A stretch of 64,000 nucleotides of DNA from an uncultured delta proteobacterium (lineage in GTDB: Bacteria > Desulfobacterota > Binatia > JACPRU01): contig CAVUWD010000011.1 in NCBI GenBank assembly GCA_963745025.1, forward strand, positions 32,001 to 96,000. The letters are read 5' to 3'. The translations under genes and the position numbers were made by a program. The notes below the pieces were generated by a model. The model made no database searches and was not told the DNA's origin. It saw only the letters and a list, made by a program, of their open reading frames with translations. Below are positions 3,948 through 17,472 of this stretch, in pieces. How positions within the stretch are numbered: the first letter of the stretch is position 1; the number at the start of each line of letters is the position of its first letter.

Positions 3948-5483
3948 ATGGCGTTCGCGGCTGAGACTCTCGAATCCACGCCCGCCCGCTCGATGATCGT
4001 CGTCACGAGCCCCGCCACCCTGCAAAAGGTGGCAGAGATCCCCGTGACGACCGCCGACGAGCTGGCGGCCGCCGAGCAGCGGGGGCGCGCTGCGCAGCGA
4101 GACTGGGCGAAGCGTTCCTTCTCCGAGCGGGCCCGCGCGCTCTACCGGTTTCGCGACGCGCTACTGGACGACGCCGAGCGCTTCGCCGACGTGCTGACGT
4201 CGGAGACCGGCAAGCCACGCGGCGACGCCTACGGTGTCGAGTTGATCTACGTGTGCGACGCGATCTCGTACTGGGGGAAGAACGCCGAGACGTTTCTCCG
4301 CGACGAGCGGGTGTGGCCTCATCTCCTCAAGAACAAGGCCGCGTACTCGACGTACGCGCCGGTCGGCCTGGTCGGCATCATCGGCCCGTGGAACTTCCCG
4401 TTCGTGCTGACGATCGGCGACGCGTTGCCCGCGCTCATGGCGGGAAACGCGGTGATCATCAAGCCTTCCGAGGTGACGCCGGGCACGGCGATGTTCGGCG
4501 CCGAGGTCTGGCGGCGGGCCGGCCTGCCCGCGGACGTCCTGCAAGTGGTCCCGGGCTACGGCGACGTCGGCGCGAAGCTCGTCGATCGCGTCGACATGAT
4601 CCTCTTCACCGGCAGCGTGGCCACCGGCCGCAAGGTCGCGGTGCGCGCGGCGGAGCGGCTGATCCCCTGCTCGCTCGAGCTCGGCGGCAAGGATCCGATG
4701 ATCGTTCTCAAGGACGCGGACCTCGATCGAGCGGCGAACGCCTGCGTGTGGGGTGGCCTGGTGAACTCCGGTCAGGTCTGCCTCTCGGTCGAGCGCGTCT
4801 ACGTGGAAGCGCCGGTCTACGAGCCGTTCGTCAGGCTCGTCGAAGAGAAGATCAAGAAGGTGAAGCAGGGCCCTTCGGCCGAAGCCGTCGACATCGGGTC
4901 GATGACCTTTCCGCCGCAGCTCGAGAAGGTCGAGCGGCACGTCGCAGACGCCGTCGCCAAGGGAGCGAAGGTGCTCGCCGGCGGACGGCGCAATCCGGCG
5001 CATCCCGGTCTCTACTACGAGCCGACGCTACTGACCGACGTGACCCACGAGATGGAGGTCATGCGCGACGAGACCTTCGGTCCGGTGATCCCGATCATGA
5101 AGGTCGCCGACGAAGAAGAGGCGATCCGGCTGGCGAACGACTCGCCGTACGGCCTCGGCGCGAGCGTCTTCACGCGCGACGCCGAGAAGGGGCGCGCGAT
5201 CGCCCGGCGCATCGAGGCCGGCGGCATCTGCGTCAACGACGCGATCGTCCACTTCGCCGTAACCGACGTACCGATGGGCGGTGTCAAAGAGAGCGGCTCC
5301 GGCCGGCGCCACGCCGCGGAGGGCATCCGCAAGTTTTGCTATCAAAAAAGCGTGGTCGTGGACCGCTTCGGCTTGAAGAGCGAGTTCAACTGGTTCCCTA
5401 ACACGCCGGGAAAGCTGAAGGGGCTCAAGCGGGTGATGAACCTCCTCTACCGCTCGGGCTGGCGGAAGAGGCTCTTCGGCTGA
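3948..5483 (+). CDS. aldehyde dehydrogenase family protein
   Basis: PWNFP, FTGS, LELGGKDP, GQVC catalytic Cys, ETFGP. Confidence 0.95.
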   Translation: MAFAAETLESTPARSMIVVTSPATLQKVAEIPVTTADELAAAEQRGRAAQRDWAKRSFSERARALYRFRDALLDDAERFADVLTSETGKPRGDAYGVELIYVCDAISYWGKNAETFLRDERVWPHLLKNKAAYSTYAPVGLVGIIGPWNFPFVLTIGDALPALMAGNAVIIKPSEVTPGTAMFGAEVWRRAGLPADVLQVVPGYGDVGAKLVDRVDMILFTGSVATGRKVAVRAAERLIPCSLELGGKDPMIVLKDADLDRAANACVWGGLVNSGQVCLSVERVYVEAPVYEPFVRLVEEKIKKVKQGPSAEAVDIGSMTFPPQLEKVERHVADAVAKGAKVLAGGRRNPAHPGLYYEPTLLTDVTHEMEVMRDETFGPVIPIMKVADEEEAIRLANDSPYGLGASVFTRDAEKGRAIARRIEAGGICVNDAIVHFAVTDVPMGGVKESGSGRRHAAEGIRKFCYQKSVVVDRFGLKSEFNWFPNTPGKLKGLKRVMNLLYRSGWRKRLFG

Positions 5484-6445
5484 GCGTCCGCCCGTAGGGC
5501 CGCCTTCTCGAACAAGCGATCGGCGAGGCGTTCGATGAAGGATGCGCCCTTCGGCCCATCTTCGAGCCCGGCGCGCCAGCGAGCCGGAATCGCCGAGCGC
5601 CCGTGATACGCGCCGGCGATCGCCCCGGTCATGGCGCCGATCGAGTCGGTCTCGCCGCCGAGGGCGACCGCGAACACGACCGCCGCCTCGAAGCTTTCGG
5701 CCTGCGACAGGAAGCAGTAGAGCGCCGTCGGCACCGAGCCGAGCGCCGTGGCGTTGGCGCCGAGCCGGTCCCGGACCACGCTCGGCGGGACTCGTCGCTC
5801 CAGACATTCCTCGACCGCGCGAAGCTTCTGGCGAAATTCGATCGAGCGCGCGGTCGAGCGAAGCTCCACGACGAAGGAAAGCGGATCGAGCGGCTCGTCG
5901 CGCCGACCGAGCGCGAGCGCGATTTGTCGTGCTTGCAGGACCGCTCCGGCGATGCCGAGCGGATGACCGTGGGTGACGGCCGCGCACGTCTCCACGACGC
6001 GCTCGAGCGCCTCACGGTCGCGATGGTGGGCGAGCGCGCACGGCGCGATCCTCGCGGCGGCCCCGTTTCCGAACGAGCCGCGGGCGAAGACGTGCTCGGC
6101 GGCGGTCTCCCAGCCCTCGCCGCCGCGCAAGCGTCGCAGAAAATCCGTCGTCGTCCGTCCATAGTGCCGGTCGGGGTCGTGCTCTCGCTGAATGCGCTCG
6201 GCGAAGCTTCCGCCATCTAGCACGCCGTCGTCGAGCACCCACTCCGCGACGGCGATCATCATCTGCGTATCCTCGGTATAGCGGCCGCGAGGATGACCGA
6301 GCATGTCGCGAACCTCGCCGTGCTCGCGGGCGATGCGTGCCGCGCTCCACCCCTTCACCGGCCGCCCGAGGGCATCGCCGACCGCCGTGCCGAGCAGGGC
6401 GCCGCGAAACGCATCGCGCAAACCTTCCGAGCTCGCGTCGGCCAT
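5447..6445 (-). CDS. ADP-ribosylglycohydrolase family protein
   Basis: GDALG, YTEDTQM, GNGAAARIAP, GGETDSIGAMTGAIAGA; overlaps ALDH 3' end convergently. Confidence 0.9.
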   Translation of the reverse strand: MADASSEGLRDAFRGALLGTAVGDALGRPVKGWSAARIAREHGEVRDMLGHPRGRYTEDTQMMIAVAEWVLDDGVLDGGSFAERIQREHDPDRHYGRTTTDFLRRLRGGEGWETAAEHVFARGSFGNGAAARIAPCALAHHRDREALERVVETCAAVTHGHPLGIAGAVLQARQIALALGRRDEPLDPLSFVVELRSTARSIEFRQKLRAVEECLERRVPPSVVRDRLGANATALGSVPTALYCFLSQAESFEAAVVFAVALGGETDSIGAMTGAIAGAYHGRSAIPARWRAGLEDGPKGASFIERLADRLFEKAALRADAQPKSLFRQPER

Positions 6446-6557
6446 CCCGCTTCTTTAGCGGGCCGGCCCCGACGAGGCCAGCCGGGCCCCCCTCGCATTT
6501 TTCGCGGACTTGCTGCAAAATCGGCTGCTTGATGGCAAGCACCACAAGGAGCTCCCG

Positions 6558-8411
6558 ATGACGGCGATCGTGAAGACTGCCCCCGCCCCCCGCCACCCCC
6601 TGGCGGGCAAAGAGATGACCTGTGCGGAGATGATCGTCCAGGTCCTCGCCGACGAGGGCGTCGACACGATCTTCGGCTACAGCGGCGGCGCGATCCTGCC
6701 GACCTACGACGCCGTCTTCCGCTACAACGCGGACCACTCCAAGTCCGAAGAGATCCGGCTGATCGTGCCGGCCACCGAGCAGGGCGCCGGCTTCATGGCC
6801 GCGGGCTACGCGCGCTCGAGCCGGCAAGGTCGGCGTGTTCCTCGTCACCTCGGGCCCGGGCGCGACCAACTCGGTGACGCCGATCCGCGACTGCCAGGCC
6901 GACTCGGTTCCGGTGGTGCTCATCTGCGGCCAGGTGCCGCGCGCCGCGATGGGCACCGACGCGTTCCAGGAGGCGCCCGTCTTCAACATCATGGCGCGTG
7001 CGCGAAGCACGTCTTCCTCGTCACCGACGAGACCAAGCTCGAGGCGACGATGCGGACCGCCTTCGACATCGCGCGCAGCGGGCCGTCCCGGGCCGGTCGT
7101 CGTCGACATCCCGAAGGACGTGCAGCTCGCCGTCGGCGCGTTCCAGGGCGCCGGCCTCCTGACGCTGCGCGGCTACGACGAGCGGCTCGAGGCGCTCGAA
7201 GGACGCGTCGCTCTCGGCGCGGCGACGCGCAAGGCGTTCTTCCGGCTGCTCGCCAAGTCGCGAGCGACCGCTCATCTACGCCGGCGGCGGCGTCATCAAC
7301 GGCGACGCCGCCGACGAGCTGCGCGCCTTCGCGGAGCGCTTCGGCATCCCGGTCGTGACGACGCTGATGGGCATCGGCGCGATCGACACCACGAGCGACC
7401 TCTCGCTGCACATGCTCGGCATGCACGGCACCGCGTACGCCAACTACGCGGTCGAGGACTGCGACTTCCTCTTCGCCGTCGGCTCGCGCTTCGACGACCG
7501 CGTCGCGCGGCAAGGTGAAGGAGTTCGCGCCGCAGCGCGAAGATCGCGCACCTCGACATCGACGCCTCCGAGATCGGCAAGGTGAAGAAGCGTCGACTGG
7601 GCGCACGTCTCCGACGCCAAGCGCCGGCCTGCGCAGCTCCTCGACGCGGGCCGGCAAGGACTTCAAGAAGGACTTCGGCCCGCTGGCGCGCGCACGTCGC
7701 GAGCTGAAGGCGCGGCACGCCGCTCGAACTACAATCGCGACGTCGCCGCTCCTGCAGCCGAGTACGTGCTGCGAGACGCTGAACGAGATCACGCGCGGCG
7801 AGGCGATCGTCACGACCGGCGTCGGCCAGCACCAGATGTGGGCGGCGCAGTACCTCGACTTCAAGCATCCGCGCGCACTTCCTCACCTCGGGCAGCATGG
7901 GCACGATGGGCTTCGGCCTGCCGGCCGCGATCGGCGCGCAGCTCGCCAACCCGGGCAAGCTCGTCATCGACGTCGACGGCGACGGCCGCATCCGCATGAA
8001 CCTCGGCGAGCTCGAGACGCTGACCACCTACGACATCCCGGTGAAGGTGCTGCTGCTCAACAACCTCGGCGACGGCATGGTCCGCCAGTGGCAGGACCTG
8101 TTCTACGCCGAACCGCTACTCGGGCTCCGACAAGACGCTGCACAAGAAGGACTTCGTCAAGGCCGCCGAGGCCGACGGCTTCGGGTTCGCGCGACGCGTC
8201 ACCAAGAACGAGGAAGTGCGGGCGGTGCTCGAGGCGTTCGTCGCATCGCGGGTCCGGCGTTCCTCGAGGTCATGGTCGACCAGAAGGCCGCACGTCTACC
8301 CGATGGTCGGCCGGCATGGGCTACAAGGACATGATCACCGGACCGTACATCGGCCCGCGCGAAGTCGTGCGGCCGGATCCGAAGAAGATCGATCCGAGCA
8401 GCATGTTCTGA
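6558..8411 (+). CDS. ilvB: acetolactate synthase large subunit, multiple frameshifts (likely assembly errors)
   Basis: [47 protein letters not shown] and GDG..RMN are spread over alternating frames. Confidence 0.88.
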
Positions 8412-9403: not shown

Positions 9404-9500
9404 GCGGAATGGGTGTTCCGCAGGCCGATGGGCAGGGAACGCAGACGCGCCGGGTACCTGAAATTGCACCCGGCGCGTCCGTAATCGGATCGCTGACTGC

Positions 9501-11779
9501 CTACCTCTCGCAGCCGAGCCCCGTAGCTTTCCGACAGGTGTCGACACCCAAACCCCCGTCAACGGTGTCCGTTCCCGCTCCGCCGTTCAAGCGGTCGTTG
9601 CCGCCGCCGCCGAGAAGGAGATCGTTGCCGTCGCCGCCACAAATCGTGTCGTTGCCACCCAGCCCCTCGATGGTGTCGCTTCCGAGGCCGCCTGCGAGGA
9701 CGTCGTCACCGTCCGTGCCGAAGATCACGTCGTCGCCGGCAGTGCAGAACACGTAGGTGAGGGGCGTAGAATTACAGGTGAGCGGTGTGCCTCTCACGCA
9801 CTTGTGGTTGGTCGTATTGCAAGTCTCGGTACCGTTGCAAACGTTCTTGTCGATGCAGTCTCTATTGCGACGGCAGCAGTCGCGAACCCCCGTGCCTTGG
9901 CAGTTCCCCTTCTTGCAGACGTCGTTAGCCGTGCAGGCGACGCCGTCGTCGCACGAACTGCCGTCCGCGAGAACGGTGTCGCATTCGCCCGATTCGGGGT
10001 TACAGGCCGTGCAGGAATTGGCGCAGACGACCGGATTGCCGCCCGTGCAGGTTCCGCCTTGGCACGTGTCGGTCTGCGTGCAGGCATCGTTGTCGTCACA
10101 CGCCGTACCGTCTGGCTTTGCCGGCCCCGAGCATTCTCCGGTGGACGGGTTGCAAACTCCTCCGTCGTGGCATTGATCGCTGGCCGTGCAGACGACGGGA
10201 TTGGAGCCGCTGCAGCTCCCGCTCTGGCAGGTGTCGGTCTGCGTGCAGGCGTTGCCGTCGTTGCAGGCGGCGCCGTTGGCCTTGGCGGGATTCGAGCACG
10301 CGCCCGTTGCCGGATTGCAGGTCCCCGCATCGTGGCACTGATCGCTGGCCGTGCAGACCACGGGGTTGGCGCCGGTGCACGCGCCCGCTCTGGCAGGTGT
10401 CGGTCTGCGTGCAGGCGTTGCCGTCGTTGCAGGAGACGCCGTCCGCCTTGGCGGGATTCGAGCAGACGCCGGTTCCGGAGTCGCAGGTCCCCGCGTCGTG
10501 GCACTGATCGCTGGCGCGTGCAGACCACGGGGTTGGCGCCGGTGCAGCGTGCCCGCTCTGGCAGGTGTCGGTCTGCGTGCAGGCGTTGCCGTCGTTGCAG
10601 GCGGCGCCGTTCGCCTTGGCGGGGTTCGAGCACACGCCGGTTCCGGAGTCGCACGTCCCCGCGTCGTGGCACTGGTCGCTGGCCGTGCAGACGACCGGGT
10701 TGGCGCCGCTGCAGCTCCCGCTCTGGCAGGTGTCGGTCTGCGTGCAGGCGTTGCCGTCGTTGCACGCGTCGCCGTTGGCCTTGGCGGGATTCGAGCACAC
10801 GCCGGTTCCGGGTCGCACGTCCCCGCGTCGTGGCACTGGTCGCTGGCCGTGCAGACGACGGGGTTGGCGCCGCTGCAGCTCCCGCTCTGGCAGGTGTCGG
10901 TCTGCGTGCAGGCGTTGCCGTCGTTGCAGCACGTCGCCGTTGGCCTTGGCGGGATTCGAGCAGACGCCGGTTCCGGAATCGCAGGTGCCCGCGTCGTGGC
11001 ACTGATCGCTGGCGGTGCAGACGACGGGGTTGGCGCCGGTGCAGCTCCCGCCTGGCAGGTGTCGGTCTGCGTGCAGGCGTTGCCGTCGTTGCAGCAAGTC
11101 GCCGTCGGCCTTGGCGGGATTCGAGCACACGCCGGTTCCGGATCGCAGGTGCCCGCGTCGTGGCACTGGTCGCTGGCGGTGCAGACGACGGGGTTGGCGC
11201 CGGTGCAGCTCCCGCCTGGCAGGTGTCGGTCTGCGTGCAGGCGTTGCCGTCGTTGCAGCGAGTCGCCGTCGGCCTTGGCGGGATTCGAGCACACGCCGGT
11301 TCCGGGTCGCAGGTGCCCGCGTCGTGGCACTGGTCGCTGGCGGTGCAGACGACGGGGTTGGAGCCGGTGCAGGCGCCCGCTCTGGCAGGTGTCGGTCTGC
11401 GTGCAGGCGTTGCCGTCGTTGCACGCCGCGCCGTTCGCCTTGGCGGGATTCGAGCACGCGCCGTCGCAGGGTTGCACGTCCCGGCGTCGTGGCACTGGTC
11501 GCTCGCCGTGCAGACGACCGGATTGGCGCCGGTGCAGACGCCGGCCTGGCAGGTGTCGGTCTGCGTGCAGGCGTTGCCGTCGTTACACGACGTTCCGTTC
11601 GGAGCCGCTGTGTAGTGGCAGTGTCCGGCTGCAGGAGGCAAGTATCGATCGTGCACGGGTCGCCATCGTTGCACTGCGAGTCCGCGGTGCATGATGCCGG
11701 GGGCGCCGCATGAACACTCGGTGCACACCCCGAGCAAGATGACTGATGTGAAGAGAATCGTTCCAAGAAGCTTCCGCAT
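9501..11779 (-). CDS. secreted Cys-rich tandem-repeat protein (Dictyostelium-type CTxDxC repeats) with C-terminal RTX-like Ca-binding repeats; frameshifted
   Basis: signal peptide [17 protein letters not shown] after GGAGG; repeats [33 protein letters not shown]; C-terminal GGxGxD nonapeptides. Confidence 0.8.
10020..11600 (-). repeat. intragenic tandem repeat, ~165 bp x 10
   Basis: gtgtcggtctgcgtgcaggc recurs at about 10066, 10231, 10397, 10564, 10730, 10894, 11058, 11223, 11388, 11553. Confidence 0.92.
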
Positions 11780-11956
11780 GATCTCGCCTCCGGAGCGCTC
11801 GGTATGCAAGGCTGTGCCAAGTTAAGTGACCCTTGAATTAGCCTGAGATTCTGGAGAAGACGTGGCGTGCAAAAAATGACGGTCTTTGACGACAGTGGCA
11901 AAATTCTGCCTTGCTTTAGCCTGCCGAGCTTTCCCTACACTTCGTTGCCCGAGCGG

Positions 11957-12849: not shown

Positions 12850-14112
12850 ATGCGAACGATCCGCGAGCCTTCGCGCGAGACGCCGGTCCTCGCGGAGACT
12901 CAGGTGCTCGTCGTGGGTGGCGGCTCTGCGGGCGTCGCCGCGGCCGTCGCGGCGGCCCGCGAAGGAGCCGAGGTGATGCTCGTCGAGCGCTATGGCCAGC
13001 TCGGCGGGCTCGCGACCGGCGGGCTCATCATTCTGCTGCTCACGCTCGATGACGGCGCAGGGCGCCAGGTCATCGGCGGCCTCTGCCAGGAACTGATCGA
13101 TCGCTTGCAGACGCGCGGCGCCGCGGTCGCCCCGCCACGCGATCAGTGGAACTCGCCCGACTCCGCATTGGTGAAGCACTACGAGCGCTGGGGGCTCGTC
13201 TGGGGAAAGGGGCCACACCGGGTTCGCTACTCCGTCGCCTACGACGCCGAAGAGGCGAAGTTCGCGCTCGCGCAGATGATCGCCGATGCCAAGGCCCGTT
13301 TGCTGCTCCACGCGTGGGCGTGCGATCCGCTGCTCGACGGCACGCGGCTTCGCGGCGTCGCCTTTCAAGGGAAATCGGGACGCTTCGCGGTCCTCGCCGA
13401 CGTGGTCATCGACACCACGGGCGACGGCGACCTCTACGCGCTCGCCGGAGCGCCTTACGAGAGCGAGAAGGTCTTTCCCTGGCTCTGGTTTCGAATGGGC
13501 GGGGTCGACGACGTCGAGGCCGCCATCACCGCGAAGGGGTGGTTCTTCCACACCCCGGGTGACGGGCGCGTTCTCCTGCCGTGGGGATCGACGGGGCGCA
13601 TCGACCGGCAGATCGACGCGACCAATCCGGAAGATCTCACCTACGCCGAGATCGAGTGCCGCAAGATGGTGATGGCAGAGGTCGATCACTTGCGCCGTGA
13701 GCTGCCGGCGTTCGCCCGCGCCCACGTCTGCGATATCGCCACGCAGCTCGGCGTGACCGAGAGCCGACGGCTCGCCGGCGAGTACGTGCTCGCGCGCGAC
13801 GACGCCGACAAGACGTTTCCCGACACCATCGCCGTGACCGGCAACTGGACGAAGTACGAGACGATCTACTCGATCCCCTACCGGTCCCTGCTGCCGCGCG
13901 GCCTCGACAACCTGATCGCCGCGGGCCGCTGCATCTCCGTCGACCACCGCGTGCATCATTCGACCAAGGAGATCCCGCCCTGCATGGCGACCGGCGAGGC
14001 CGCGGGCGTGGCCGCCACGATGGCGGCGGGCGGCGCGGCGGCGCGGGACGTTCCGGTCGACGCGCTGCGGGCGAGGCTCCGCGCCCGCGGCGCGATCGTC
14101 GATCGCCCCTGA
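12850..14112 (+). CDS. FAD-dependent oxidoreductase
   Basis: VVGGGSAGVAAA, GGLATGG, IDTTGDGD, IPYRSLLP, AGRCIS, CMATGEAAG. Confidence 0.9.
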   Translation: MRTIREPSRETPVLAETQVLVVGGGSAGVAAAVAAAREGAEVMLVERYGQLGGLATGGLIILLLTLDDGAGRQVIGGLCQELIDRLQTRGAAVAPPRDQWNSPDSALVKHYERWGLVWGKGPHRVRYSVAYDAEEAKFALAQMIADAKARLLLHAWACDPLLDGTRLRGVAFQGKSGRFAVLADVVIDTTGDGDLYALAGAPYESEKVFPWLWFRMGGVDDVEAAITAKGWFFHTPGDGRVLLPWGSTGRIDRQIDATNPEDLTYAEIECRKMVMAEVDHLRRELPAFARAHVCDIATQLGVTESRRLAGEYVLARDDADKTFPDTIAVTGNWTKYETIYSIPYRSLLPRGLDNLIAAGRCISVDHRVHHSTKEIPPCMATGEAAGVAATMAAGGAAARDVPVDALRARLRARGAIVDRP

Positions 14113-14294
14113 TGATGTCCCTTTCCAAGGGTGGCTCGGAGACGTTGGCACGACGAATCCTCTCCCGCAGGAGAGAACCGTGACATGGACGGGTTGCTGA
14201 AGAAGATTTTCGGCAACTGCTGTCACCCGTTCCCGATCTCCCGAGCGTAAGACGTGTCATTGAAACCGACACGCAGCCAGGAGGATCGTTGACC

Positions 14295-14495
14295 ATGGAA
14301 GCGATCACGCACATCGCTGGACTCATCCCAGGTTTCCTCACCTCTCCGGCCGACCTGACCGTAGTGGAGCAGCTCGCTGCTCTAGGCGCGCTCGCCTGGA
14401 ACGTCGGCATTCTCGTCTTGGTCCGGGCGCTGGCGAGCCGCCGGCCGGCGGTTCGAGAGCGCGACCGCGGCGGCGAATACGACGAGGCGGCATGA
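14295..14495 (+). CDS. small single-TM hypothetical protein
   Basis: GGAGG RBS, one hydrophobic stretch, stop overlaps sigma factor start (ATGA). Confidence 0.55.
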   Translation: MEAITHIAGLIPGFLTSPADLTVVEQLAALGALAWNVGILVLVRALASRRPAVRERDRGGEYDEAA

Positions 14496-15043
14496 GTCAG
14501 GGCACGTCGACCATGGTCGCCCGCACCAGACGAAGCGAGACGGACGATCGCGAGCTGCTCGCGCGCGTCGCAGCCGGCGGCGAAGACGCGTTCATCGAGC
14601 TCGTTCGGCGCTATCAGCGCCGCTTCTACGGAATCGCGCGGCGCATGCTCGGCGATGATCGGGACGCGGAGGACGCGGTGCAGACGGCGTTCCTCCGCAT
14701 TCACCGCCACGCCGCCGCGTATCGCGAGGAGTGGAGCGGCGCGACGTGGCTCTACCGAATCCTCACCAACGTCGTGATCGATCACTGGCGCAAGCGCCGC
14801 CGGCTCGGTGAGGTCCCGCTGTCCGCGACCGACGTCGTCGGCACGGCGGGCAACGCGGAGCGAGTGGACGTCGACCGCGCGCTCGCCAAGCTTCCCGCCG
14901 AGGCACGCGCGATTCTCCTTCTCTGCTACGTCGAGGAGCTTCCCTATGCGGAGATCGCGCGCGCCCGGGGAATTTCCATCAACACGGTGAAGACACAGCT
15001 TCTGCGAGCCAAAGGGCTCATGAGGCGATACTTGAAGAGGTGA
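14492..15043 (+). CDS. ECF RNA polymerase sigma factor
   Basis: DAEDAVQTAF, TWLYRILTN (region 2); LPYAEIA..GISINTVKTQLLRAK (region 4). Confidence 0.92.
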   Translation: MSQGTSTMVARTRRSETDDRELLARVAAGGEDAFIELVRRYQRRFYGIARRMLGDDRDAEDAVQTAFLRIHRHAAAYREEWSGATWLYRILTNVVIDHWRKRRRLGEVPLSATDVVGTAGNAERVDVDRALAKLPAEARAILLLCYVEELPYAEIARARGISINTVKTQLLRAKGLMRRYLKR

Positions 15044-15047
15044 GACC

Positions 15048-15761
15048 ATGATCCATGGAACACACGACCACGACTTCCGCTCCGTGCTCGCTCCGCCGGC
15101 CGCGCCCGCGGGTCTTGCCGAGCGGGTGCTGCAAGCGGCGCGGGAGCGTCGCGAAACAGGCGCGCTGGCGCTACGCTTCGACATCGCGGCTTCCGAGCGC
15201 GGCGTGGCGCGGCTTCACCCGGGCAAGGGCGAGATCCGCGCGGAATCGCGCCGCGCGCGTACGCTCGCCGAGCGCGCCCGCGAGGAGCTCGGCGAGTACC
15301 TCGAGGGTTTGCGCAGCTACTTCACAGTCCCGATCGATCTTGGCGCAACCGCCGGCTTTCAACGCGCGGTCCTGGAGGCGGCTCGCGCGATTCCGTTCGG
15401 CGAGGTGCGATCCTACGGCTGGGTCGCCGAGCACATCGGCAAACCGCGTGCCGTCCGCGCGGTCGGCACGGCGCTCGGGCGAAATCCCGTTCCACTCGTC
15501 GTTCCCTGCCACCGCGTGCTGCGCTCCGACGGCAGTCTCGGCGGCTACGGCCTCGGCCTCGACCTGAAGAGCCGCCTCCTCTCGCTCGAGCGCGAGACGC
15601 CGGCAATCGTCGGATCCGATACGACCCGCATCGTCTGCCGCCACGGCTGCGCGAACGAGCAACGCATCGCCGAGCGGCACCGGGTGGTGTTCGCGACGAT
15701 CGCCGAGGCCCGGCAAGCGGGCTACCGCCGCTGCCGCCGCTGCCTGCCGGCCGACCACTGA
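15048..15761 (+). CDS. ogt: methylated-DNA-protein-cysteine methyltransferase with C-terminal Ada metal-binding domain
   Basis: IPFGEVRSYG, RAVGTALGRNP, PCHRV active site; TTRIVCRHGC...AGYRRCRRC. Confidence 0.9.
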   Translation: MIHGTHDHDFRSVLAPPAAPAGLAERVLQAARERRETGALALRFDIAASERGVARLHPGKGEIRAESRRARTLAERAREELGEYLEGLRSYFTVPIDLGATAGFQRAVLEAARAIPFGEVRSYGWVAEHIGKPRAVRAVGTALGRNPVPLVVPCHRVLRSDGSLGGYGLGLDLKSRLLSLERETPAIVGSDTTRIVCRHGCANEQRIAERHRVVFATIAEARQAGYRRCRRCLPADH

Positions 15762-15864
15762 GTCGTTTGGGTGGGGCTCGCGTTCCATATCTTTCGGTGG
15801 ATCCGATCGGCGGCGGCTTTCCGGGCACGGTGGAAATTGCTAATCGAACGGCGCACCAGGTCGC

Positions 15865-17472
15865 ATGGACCGCATCGAATCCAAGATCCGCCCCGCTTCG
15901 CCCGAGTTCCAGGAGAACTTCGCGCACAACCGCGCGCTCGCCGAAGACCTGCAGAAGCGCCTCGATCACGCCCGCCGCGGCGGGTCCGAGGAGCACCGCC
16001 GAAGGCACAAGAAGCGCGGCAAGATGCTGCCGCGCGAACGGATCGACGCGCTGCTCGATCCGGAAACCCCGTTCCTCGAGCTGTCACCGCTCGCGGCCAA
16101 CGATCTGTACAAGGGCGAGGCGCCCTCCGCGGGGGTGGTCACGGGGGTCGGCCGCATCTCCGGCCGCGAAGCGCTGGTCATCGCCAACGACGCGACCGTG
16201 AAGGGCGGCACGTACTATCCAATGACGGTCAAGAAGCATCTTCGCGCGCAGGAGGTCGCTCTCGAGAACCGCCTCCCCTGCGTCTATCTGGTGGATTCCG
16301 GCGGCGCCTTCCTACCGCTCCAGGCCGACGTGTTCCCCGATCGCGAGCACTTCGGACGCATCTTCTACAACCAGGCACGCATGTCGGCGGCCGGCATCCC
16401 GCAAGTCGCGGTGGTGATGGGCTCGTGCACCGCGGGCGGAGCCTACGTGCCTGCGATGAGCGACGAAGCGGTCATCGTCAAGCAGCAGGGAACGATCTTC
16501 CTCGCGGGGCCGCCGCTCGTGAAGGCGGCAACCGGCGAGGAGGTGACCGCGGAGGAGCTCGGCGGCGGAGACGTGCACACGCGGATCTCCGGAGTCGCGG
16601 ACCATCTCGCCGAGGACGACGCCCACGCGATCGAGATCACCCGCTCGATCTTCGAGAACCTGCCGACGCGGGCCGAACCCGACGTCGAGCGCCTCGCGCC
16701 GGAGCCACCGGCATACGATCCCAAGGAGATCTACGGAATCGTTCCCAAGAACCCGCGCCGGCCGCTCGACATCGTCGAGGTCGTCGCTCGCCTAGTCGAC
16801 GGCAGCCGGCTCCACGAGTTCAAGGCGCGTTACGGCTCCACGCTCGTGACCGGCTTCGCGCACATCCACGGTTACCCGGTCGGCATTCTCGCCAACAACG
16901 GAGTGCTCTTCTCCGAATCCTCACTCAAGGCGGCGCACTTCGTCGAGCTCTGCTGTCAGCGCAGCGTGCCGATCCTCTATCTGCAGAACATCACTGGCTA
17001 CATCGTCGGCCGGCAGTACGAGCAGGGTGGCATCGCCAAGGACGGAGCGAAGATGGTGCACGCCACGGCGAACGCGGCGGTGCCGAAGATCACGGTGATC
17101 GTCGGCGCCTCTTATGGCGCCGGCAACTACGGCATGTGCGGCCGCGCCTATCAGCCGCGCTTCCTCTTCATGTGGCCGAACGCGCGGATCTCGGTGATGG
17201 GCGGCGAGCAGGCGGCGCAGACTCTCGTCACCGTCAAGGTTCAGCAGCTCGCGGAGAGGGGCGAGACGCTCGACGATGCCGGCCAGAAAGAGATCGCCGA
17301 GCCGATCCTCTCGAAGTTCGAGCACGAAGGCAGTCCCTACTTCTCGACATCGCGACTGTGGGACGACGGAGTCCTCGATCCCGTGGAGACGCGCGATACG
17401 CTCGGCCTGGCGATCGCAATCGCGCTCGGCGCGCCGATGTCGGCGACGCGGTTTGGGGTGTTTCGAATGTGA
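15865..17472 (+). CDS. liuB: methylcrotonyl-CoA carboxylase-type carboxyltransferase subunit
   Basis: [49 protein letters not shown]. Confidence 0.9.

What the first reader, a model, noticed from the sequence alone, without database searches (positions are those of the whole stretch)
14492..15761. ECF sigma plus Ogt-Ada(Zn) fusion: possible alkylation-sensing anti-sigma system
Seen: the gene 4 bp downstream of the ECF sigma, the usual anti-sigma position, encodes an N-terminal helix-like stub (PPAAPAGLAERVLQAA) resembling anti-sigma domain tails, an intact O6-alkylguanine transferase (PCHRV) and a C-terminal four-Cys Ada domain (CRHGC...CRRC). Established: E. coli Ada has the Zn domain N-terminal plus an AraC HTH and activates transcription when methylated. 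Here the order is reversed and no AraC HTH is present. Inference: an adaptive response in which suicide methylation of the repair protein releases or activates a sigma factor.
Basis: partly seen in the sequence, partly recalled or inferred. Interest (0 to 1): 0.75.

Follow-up and report, generated by a model that had tools for sequence, protein, structure and literature searches.

The report
DNA-repair enzyme as likely anti-sigma factor
A self-sacrificing DNA-repair enzyme carries a short extra arm that is predicted to clamp and silence the neighbouring sigma factor, which would give many soil and groundwater bacteria a so far undescribed way to switch on defences against DNA-methylating chemicals.

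Summary
Observation confirmed: an ECF sigma (14492-15043) is followed 4 bp later by a stub-Ogt-Ada(Zn) protein (15048-15761) with no AraC HTH. The pair is conserved. Of 80 fetched genome loci, 78 carry the fusion, and 74 of the 75 with upstream sequence have an ECF directly in front, across about seven phyla, mostly overlapping by ATGA. The two-helix stub (Pro in 69/71) and all catalytic and Zn cysteines are kept. Each of two sigma clades has its own conserved bipartite promoter; the window's is at 14224-14249. A fold of sigma plus stub scored ipSAE 0.66 against a best control of 0.01. Helix 1 sits on sigma4 and helix 2 on the core-binding face of sigma2, the CnrY-type (class II) anti-sigma mode. 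The pass may reflect memory of solved sigma/anti-sigma complexes, and the stub matches no known anti-sigma domain by sequence. The ECF-Ogt pairing is in print (ECF122, ECF203), but those groups were said to lack an anti-sigma and to have no characterised regulator. Best reading: an anti-sigma inactivated by suicide methylation, forming an Ada-independent adaptive response (0.6). Binding is predicted only; release on methylation is inferred.

The parts
14224..14249 (+). Putative autoregulated ECF promoter, CACCC-N17-CGTA (-35/-10)
   Evidence: The same pattern lies upstream in all 6 clade-A sigma loci and in L006; 2 sites in the window against 0.5 expected by chance. Not found upstream of clade-B sigmas.
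14295..14495 (+). 66-aa ORF with one hydrophobic stretch; its stop overlaps the sigma ATG (ATGA); probably the first gene of the operon, not conserved
   Evidence: no Pfam hit; best tblastn against the 85 held loci E 0.16
14492..15043 (+). ECF sigma factor (sigma2 + sigma4), clade A (Binatia/Rokubacteria/NC10 type)
   Evidence: clade of 17 rows at 100/99 support
15048..15164 (+). N-terminal helix-Pro-helix stub (aa 1-39), predicted anti-sigma arm
   Evidence: Conserved in 71 coupled proteins; helices 5-14 and 23-39; complex model 0.66 against control 0.01
15165..15596 (+). O6-alkylguanine-DNA alkyltransferase (Ogt) domain; Y123, R137, N146, C154 (PCHR), Y167, E181
   Evidence: these residues invariant in 128/128 rows of A2
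15597..15761 (+). C-terminal Ada-type Cys4 zinc domain (C197, C201, C229, C232; T193, R227), without AraC HTH
   Evidence: PF02805; aligns to E. coli N-Ada, C197 on the first Cys of CRPSC; Cys 128/128, T193 120/128, R227 127/128

Best explanation
The stub-Ogt-Ada(Zn) protein is both a repair enzyme and the anti-sigma factor of the ECF in front of it. (1) The ECF transcribes its own operon from a clade-specific promoter (inferred from the conserved motif). (2) Translational coupling gives about 1:1 amounts. The two-helix arm wraps the sigma, helix 1 on sigma4 and helix 2 on regions 2.1/2.2, and keeps it from RNA polymerase (predicted by the model, not measured). (3) On exposure to methylating agents, the Ogt cysteine (O6-methylguanine) and/or the Ada-domain cysteine (methylphosphotriester) is irreversibly methylated. 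The chemistry is established for both families and the residues are shown intact. (4) Methylation destabilises or redirects the protein, so the sigma is freed (inferred from known AGT destabilisation and turnover). (5) The sigma induces its operon and other alkylation-repair genes, and fresh unmethylated protein recaptures it and ends the response (inferred).
For: Adjacency in 74/75 assessable loci, about 7 phyla; ATGA overlap in 62/71 pairs. Stub Pro in 69/71, with a helix-Pro-helix pattern. A profile built from clade-B stubs alone scores 53/113 clade-A N-termini above 5 bits, against 11/565 shuffles and 0/113 internal segments. The eight plain Ogts inspected that are not the +1 fusion show no such helix-Pro-helix start, judged by eye. 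Complex model: ipSAE 0.66, best of 3 controls 0.01; this mark was reached by 116/157 solved complexes and 2/215 mismatched pairs; runs agree in at least 86% of contacts; partner pLDDT at least 70. Contacts on sigma 34-72 and 127-181 match the CnrY-CnrH dual mode described in PMC7406223. Promoters: clade A CACCC-N16/17-CGTA at the window, 6/6 clade-A sigma loci and L006. Clade B TGCAAC-N16-18-GTT (one mismatch allowed) in 62/68 fixed upstream windows against 85/1894 background windows. Repair genes near or under the promoter in some loci: AlkB-like plus second Ogt (L030), Oxygenase-NA (L065, L075), HhH-GPD glycosylase (L058). Alkylation destabilises AGTs and leads to their degradation (PMC10779285, PMC7216122).
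Against: No experiment. The complex pass may be memory of solved sigma/anti-sigma complexes. Only stub residues 1-45 were folded, so the arm might pack on the Ogt domain in the whole protein. No sequence match of the stub to any anti-sigma in Pfam (0/70 members) or PDB, and the atlas gave only leads under 0.9 with no anti-sigma among them. The commonest downstream gene is an EamA transporter (22/55), not a repair gene. The window's own operon has no other repair gene. Streptomyces copies have lost the base-flipping Tyr and Arg, so O6-methylguanine repair by this protein cannot be the universal trigger. PMC7826278 instead proposes TetR control for ECF203.
Confidence: 0.6

Rival explanations
1. 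The protein is an anti-sigma, but the signal is not repair-coupled methylation. The Cys4 zinc site or the reactive PCHR thiol senses electrophiles, oxidants or nitrosating agents directly, as zinc-binding anti-sigmas do.
For: Streptomyces copies keep PCHR and the four Cys but lose the Tyr/Arg finger. Neighbours are often transporters or redox enzymes. Redox and zinc sensing by RsrA and ChrR is recalled, not tested here.
Against: The Ada-domain residues aligned to N-Ada's DNA-contacting Thr and Arg (roles recalled) are kept: T193 120/128, R227 127/128. The whole base-flipping set is invariant in 128/128 non-Streptomyces rows. Neighbouring repair genes are alkylation-specific.
Confidence: 0.14
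2. Ogt-Ada is only a target gene of the sigma. The stub is structural, and the sigma is controlled otherwise (TetR or other transcriptional control, as proposed for ECF203).
For: PMC7826278 found no anti-sigma for ECF122/ECF203 and a TetR at 0.88 per ECF203. A TetR lies upstream in L082. No sequence homology of the stub to known anti-sigma domains.
Against: The stub tracks sigma adjacency: reduced in the sigma-less L006, which keeps the promoter (one case, frameshifted), and not seen in the plain second Ogts. The complex passes its controls. The conserved promoter argues for autoregulation, which needs an inhibitor. Among the 82 flanking ORFs scanned no regulator family is conserved, and no TetR appears.
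Confidence: 0.13
3. An Ada-like co-activator: the methylated protein binds DNA through its Ada domain (electrostatic switch) and delivers or activates the tethered sigma at promoters, the sigma taking the place of the AraC HTH.
For: Methylation of N-Ada raises DNA affinity (PMC10779285). A natural in-frame sigma-stub-Ogt-Ada fusion exists in Streptomyces sp. NBC_00212 (L084), although its sigma part is degenerate.
Against: The model puts helix 2 on regions 2.1/2.2, the surface that binds the beta-prime clamp (PMC7406223), which does not fit an active holoenzyme. No conserved Ada-box-like word stood out next to the promoter in the motif scan.
Confidence: 0.1

Closest known systems
ECF203 (Casas-Pastor et al. 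2021, PMC7826278; supplement and main-text passages read)
   Same: ECF with an O6-methylguanine methyltransferase at +1 (1.44 per ECF) and Ada_Zn domains (1.22 per ECF) nearby. The Streptomyces loci L082/L083/L085, with a second Ogt, SARP, TetR or MFS, fit this description, so clade B probably includes ECF203 (inferred).
   Different: Described as 100% Actinobacteria, with no anti-sigma, no conserved promoter and proposed TetR control. Here: about 7 phyla, a conserved promoter per clade and a predicted anti-sigma arm. The window's sigma is in a separate clade (A) with another promoter; A+B monophyly is neither shown nor rejected (p-AU 0.27).
ECF122 (same paper; PMC8999054 lists its mechanism as unknown)
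   Same: Ogt at +1, no anti-sigma found, DNA repair role suggested. Its predicted promoter (CTCAC / CGTCTAC) loosely resembles the clade-A motif.
   Different: No Ada domain is described for it; Actinobacteria only. Whether its Ogt has the same arm was not tested, as no ECF122 sequence was in hand.
E. coli Ada adaptive response (also B. subtilis AdaA/AdaB, recalled names)
   Same: The same two suicide acceptor modules (Cys4-Zn phosphotriester domain, PCHR AGT); repair doubles as sensing; positive autoregulation with alkA/alkB-type targets.
   Different: Reversed domain order and no AraC HTH. Output would be release of an alternative sigma (derepression), not activation at an Ada box.
Class II anti-sigma domains (CnrY-CnrH; NepR-EcfG)
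   Same: Two short helices; first on sigma4, second on sigma2 (PMC7406223 for CnrY; for this pair).
   Different: No detectable sequence similarity. The sensor is a soluble DNA-repair enzyme fused C-terminally, not a membrane metal sensor or a PhyR partner switch.

Membership tests
ECF sigma factor | sigma2 and sigma4 present, no sigma3 | tested here: met
AGT/Ogt alkyltransferase | PCHR cysteine, Tyr and Arg finger, Asn hinge, Glu; two-domain fold | tested here: met
   Y123, R137, N146, C154, H155, E181 in 128/128 rows (roles recalled); fold match; TIGR00589 103 bits against cut-off 46.4
AGT/Ogt alkyltransferase | Alkyl transfer activity | not testable with these tools
   Needs an assay
Ada (bifunctional regulator) | Cys4 zinc domain with the methyl-acceptor cysteine | tested here: met
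   PF02805; alignment to N-Ada
Ada (bifunctional regulator) | AraC HTH, and Zn domain N-terminal to the AGT | tested here: not met
   No HTH in Pfam; order reversed; NF011964 117 bits against cut-off 345. Not an Ada.
Class I anti-sigma domain (ASDI/ZAS) | Four helices, at least 50 aa, often Hx3Cx2C | tested here: not met
   Two helices, about 35 aa, no such motif; no Pfam or PDB hit
Class II anti-sigma domain | Two helices, helix 1 on sigma4 and helix 2 on sigma2 | tested here: met
   In a model only: ipSAE 0.66 against control 0.01; may come from likeness to solved complexes
Class II anti-sigma domain | Sequence similarity to CnrY/NepR | tested here: not met
   The stub profile found no anti-sigma chain in PDB at E up to 10 and no such Pfam family; a 34-column profile has little power
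Class II anti-sigma domain | Inhibits sigma-dependent transcription | not testable with these tools
   Needs in vitro transcription or a reporter
ECF203 | Ogt at +1 and Ada_Zn in the neighbourhood | tested here: met
ECF203 | Actinobacterial origin with TetR/MFS context | tested here: not met
   The window's nearest named relatives are Binatia/Deltaproteobacteria; its neighbours are an FAD oxidoreductase and a carboxyl transferase
ECF203 / ECF122 | Score above the group HMM threshold | not testable with these tools
ECF122 | Promoter CTCAC / CGTCTAC | tested here: inconclusive
   The window has TCACCC-N17-CGTAAG: similar, not identical

The most novel reading that the evidence does not exclude
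A third, widespread architecture of the adaptive response: a suicide DNA alkyltransferase is itself the anti-sigma factor, so every repair event removes one inhibitor and the cell counts alkylation damage by titrating a sigma factor. It explains the regulator-less groups ECF203 and possibly ECF122. It has been paired with two sigma clades with different promoters, and Streptomyces have specialised it into a sensor-only copy in gene clusters that may make DNA-alkylating compounds.
Probability: 0.5. Interest if true: 0.86.

Novelty: new variant of a known kind. Interest (0 to 1): 0.76.

Why it matters
If true, it would be a sigma/anti-sigma switch whose sensor is a DNA-repair reaction. My literature searches found none described. 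It is an alternative to the textbook Ada activator and is present in abundant uncultured soil and groundwater lineages as well as culturable ones (Nonomuraea, Actinomadura, Rubrobacter radiotolerans, Streptomyces). It supplies a testable regulator, promoter and trigger for ECF groups listed as having no known regulator. It may also mark gene clusters for alkylating natural products, and could serve as a compact alkylation biosensor.

Tried and rejected
Stub homology by sequence: a 70-row profile gave no anti-sigma in PDB (4 hits, best E 0.21) or Pfam. The atlas gave only sub-0.9 leads, two of them Ogt fragments. The same profile over 1.84 billion representatives gave 98 hits. 66 matched Ogt, Ada or sigma profiles, and most of the rest look like truncated or frameshifted family members. 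Two (P0256, P0317) are repeat proteins with an LxxLKxxAPEGFAxxV motif; P0256 goes on to hydrophobic segments and a weak bactofilin match (E 0.12), recalling RsiW-type anti-sigmas (recalled). This is a lead only, and its score is inflated by repeats. Sigma monophyly (A+B): AU p 0.267, undecided. In that tree 4 homologs first labelled A (P0217, P0224, P0227, P0231) fell outside the clade and were left out of the tested group. One row pairing in alignments A2/A3 (P0103 with P0227, matched on contig length) was therefore wrong. A second clade-A motif at window 24687(-) lies inside a + strand ORF and was set aside as chance. No sigma70 promoter or terminator at 14000-16000. L031, L035 and L065 were left out of the 71-pair counts (suspected frameshift or start problems), and L039 was lost to a distance filter, though it has the sigma. 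The L084 fusion was not taken as strong evidence: its sigma is degenerate, and a small deletion at an ATGA overlap would produce it. The cluster look-up for the 66-aa ORF and P0256 could not be made. Metagenome and viral contig collections stayed unchecked.

Full report
Observation. The window encodes an ECF sigma at 14492-15043 and, 4 bp later, a 237-aa protein at 15048-15761. The sigma has regions 2 and 4 only. The second protein has an Ogt DNA-binding/active-site domain (aa 104-182), a weak RNase-like domain (44-98) and a C-terminal Ada zinc domain (187-234), with no AraC HTH. Its model (pLDDT 88.2, 39-row alignment) shows two lower-confidence helices, 5-14 and 23-39, ahead of the Ogt fold. 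Foldseek returns Ogt/AGT structures and N-Ada. The Ada domain aligns with E. coli N-Ada, with C197 on the first cysteine of CRPSC, which I recall as the methyl acceptor Cys38.

Conservation. 118 of the 120 listed protein homologs carry both Pfam domains; the nearest named ones are Binatia, Deltaproteobacteria and NC10/Methylomirabilota. One scan of GTDB genomes returned 80 loci, the best of 598 confirmed among the first 600 pattern matches. This is a similarity-ranked sample, not a census, and it holds many related Chloroflexota. 78 of the 80 have the C-terminal Ada domain. Three of these start at a contig edge. Of the other 75, 74 have an ECF directly upstream. The two loci without an Ada domain have no sigma. 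Hosts named in the record titles include Binatota, Methylomirabilota/Rokubacteria, Actinomycetota, Chloroflexota, Entotheonella, Eremiobacterota and Acidobacteriota. In the 71 intact pairs counted (70 loci plus the window), PCHR and the four cysteines are present in 71/71, and the genes overlap by ATGA in 62/71. Also, 22 contig lengths are shared between the top 81 Ogt and top 79 sigma homologs, an indirect sign of co-location.

The stub. All 71 coupled proteins begin with a short amphipathic helix, a proline (69/71) and a second helix. A profile made from clade-B stubs alone recognises clade-A N-termini (53/113 above 5 bits, against 11/565 shuffles and 0/113 internal segments), so it is one homologous element. 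Eight plain Ogts from the same loci show no such start, judged by eye. In L006, the one assessable fusion with no adjacent sigma, the stub is reduced to about 20 residues while the promoter is kept; this is a single frameshifted case. By sequence the stub matches no known anti-sigma domain, apart from a weak lead to a repeat protein.

Complex model. Sigma 14-183 with stub 1-45, each with its alignment, scored ipSAE 0.66, best of three controls 0.01. That mark was reached by 116 of 157 solved complexes and 2 of 215 mismatched pairs (roughly applicable, since my own alignments were used). The runs share at least 86% of contacts, and partner pLDDT is at least 70. Stub residues 7-14 touch sigma4 (127-149, 174-181), and residues 19-34 touch sigma regions 2.1/2.2 (34-72). 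PMC7406223 (passages) describes this dual mode for the two-helix class II anti-sigma CnrY and states that regions 2.1/2.2 bind the beta-prime clamp. It also says that domains under 50 aa were removed from its survey, which would hide an arm like this. The pass may come from likeness to such solved complexes, and the full-length protein was not tested.

Promoters. An unbiased scan of 73 upstream regions found TGCAAC-N17-GTT strongly enriched. With one mismatch allowed it lies in 62 of 68 clade-B upstream windows, against 85 of 1894 background windows. Of the six misses, L043 has no upstream DNA; L037, L065 and L075 have the motif in front of an intervening gene; L026 has a 19-nt spacer; L056 has a site with a longer spacer by eye. 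Clade A has CACCC-N16/17-CGTA instead: at window 14224-14249, in all six clade-A sigma loci and in L006, with neither motif crossing clades. In the window the promoter precedes a non-conserved 66-aa ORF that overlaps the sigma start; in L001 it precedes a P450. The sigma tree (58 rows) gives clade A (17 rows, 100/99) and clade B (26 rows, 99/93). Their joint monophyly is undecided (p-AU 0.267).

Function of the regulon. Of 55 downstream ORFs scanned, 22 are EamA transporters. Repair genes occur in a minority: AlkB-like (L030, followed by a second Ogt), a second Ogt (L031), an HhH-GPD glycosylase (L058), Oxygenase-NA (L065) and LigD (L067). Among 27 of 44 upstream ORFs scanned are a plain Ogt (L065) and Oxygenase-NA (L075). 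L065 has the promoter both before its plain Ogt and before its oxygenase. Five annotated plasmid records add culturable cases. Rubrobacter radiotolerans has an intact pair. Three Streptomyces have sigma, fusion and a second Ogt beside SAM-cycle genes (two also beside an adenylosuccinate-lyase-family gene). One has an in-frame sigma-stub-Ogt-Ada fusion beside a VlmB-like gene. In the Streptomyces fusions the base-flipping Tyr and Arg are lost, while PCHR and the zinc cysteines remain and the second Ogt is canonical, which suggests a split into sensor and repair copies. That these clusters make alkylating agents is my inference from gene names. The streptozotocin cluster is known to carry AGT and AlkB homologs (PMC8264950 passages).

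Mechanism. The most economical reading is a titration switch. The unmethylated repair protein holds the sigma. Suicide methylation at C154 and/or C197 destabilises it or diverts it to DNA, and the sigma is freed and transcribes its own operon and other repair genes. New protein then recaptures it. Shown here: anatomy, conservation, coupling and motif. Predicted: binding and its inhibitory geometry. Inferred: release by methylation, from the known destabilisation and degradation of alkylated AGTs and the electrostatic switch of N-Ada (PMC10779285 and PMC7216122 passages). Confidence 0.6. The rivals are another chemical trigger (0.14), mere target gene (0.13) and co-activator (0.10).

Prior knowledge. 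PMC7826278 (main-text passages, supplement passages, supplement parts 1 and 18) describes ECF122 and ECF203, both Actinobacteria only, with Ogt at +1, and ECF203 also with Ada_Zn domains. It states that neither has a putative anti-sigma and that ECF203 has no characterised member and no conserved promoter. PMC8999054 (passages) lists ECF122's mechanism as unknown and names the methyltransferase among proteins that could be involved, without a mechanism. PMC8103513 (passages) mentions neither group. Tables S1-S5 of PMC7826278 could not be seen and may bear on group assignment. Searches for an alkyltransferase acting as anti-sigma returned nothing relevant by listing or nothing at all; the library lacks most subscription papers. 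Searches were background searches. So the pairing is known. The anti-sigma arm, the promoters, the range and the mechanism are, within these searches, not in print. The protein is not an Ada and not a class I anti-sigma; it works like a class II one. I file it as a new variant of a known kind, interest 0.76.

Noticed in passing
L084:5134-6480 (Streptomyces sp. NBC_00212 plasmid, WP_331721395.1): Natural in-frame ECF sigma-stub-Ogt-Ada fusion of 448 aa with a degenerate sigma, next to VlmB-like and PLP-decarboxylase genes and a second Ogt.
   Followed up: partly
L082, L083, L085 (Streptomyces plasmids), about 5050-7070: The module sits with a second plain Ogt beside metK/metF, SARP and (L083, L085) an adenylosuccinate-lyase-family gene; possible self-resistance for an alkylating metabolite. 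The fusion copy lacks the base-flipping Tyr and Arg.
   Followed up: partly
L006:4804-5507: Sigma-less Ogt-Ada with the clade-A promoter and a reduced stub; may be a regulon member that lost the anti-sigma arm (frameshifted assembly).
   Followed up: partly
Chloroflexota loci, directly downstream of Ogt-Ada (e.g. L069:5497-6579): EamA transporter in 22 of 55 downstream ORFs; could export an alkylating compound or be mere synteny.
   Followed up: no
window 14295-14495: 66-aa hydrophobic ORF coupled to the sigma start; no homolog in the held loci.
   Followed up: partly
window 14185-14250: 21-codon ORF with a good ribosome-binding site and a CCH motif overlaps the promoter, its stop falling in the -10 element; probably chance.
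   Followed up: no
window about 9500-11900 (-): Cysteine-rich tandem-repeat protein broken by many frameshifts; several other genes in the window are also frameshifted, suggesting long-read errors. The two genes studied are intact (96-97% identical homologs exist).
   Followed up: no
P0256 and P0317: Proteins with 3-4 or more tandem copies of a helix-Pro-helix motif like the stub; P0256 continues into hydrophobic segments and a bactofilin-like region; possibly a multi-arm anti-sigma.
   Followed up: partly
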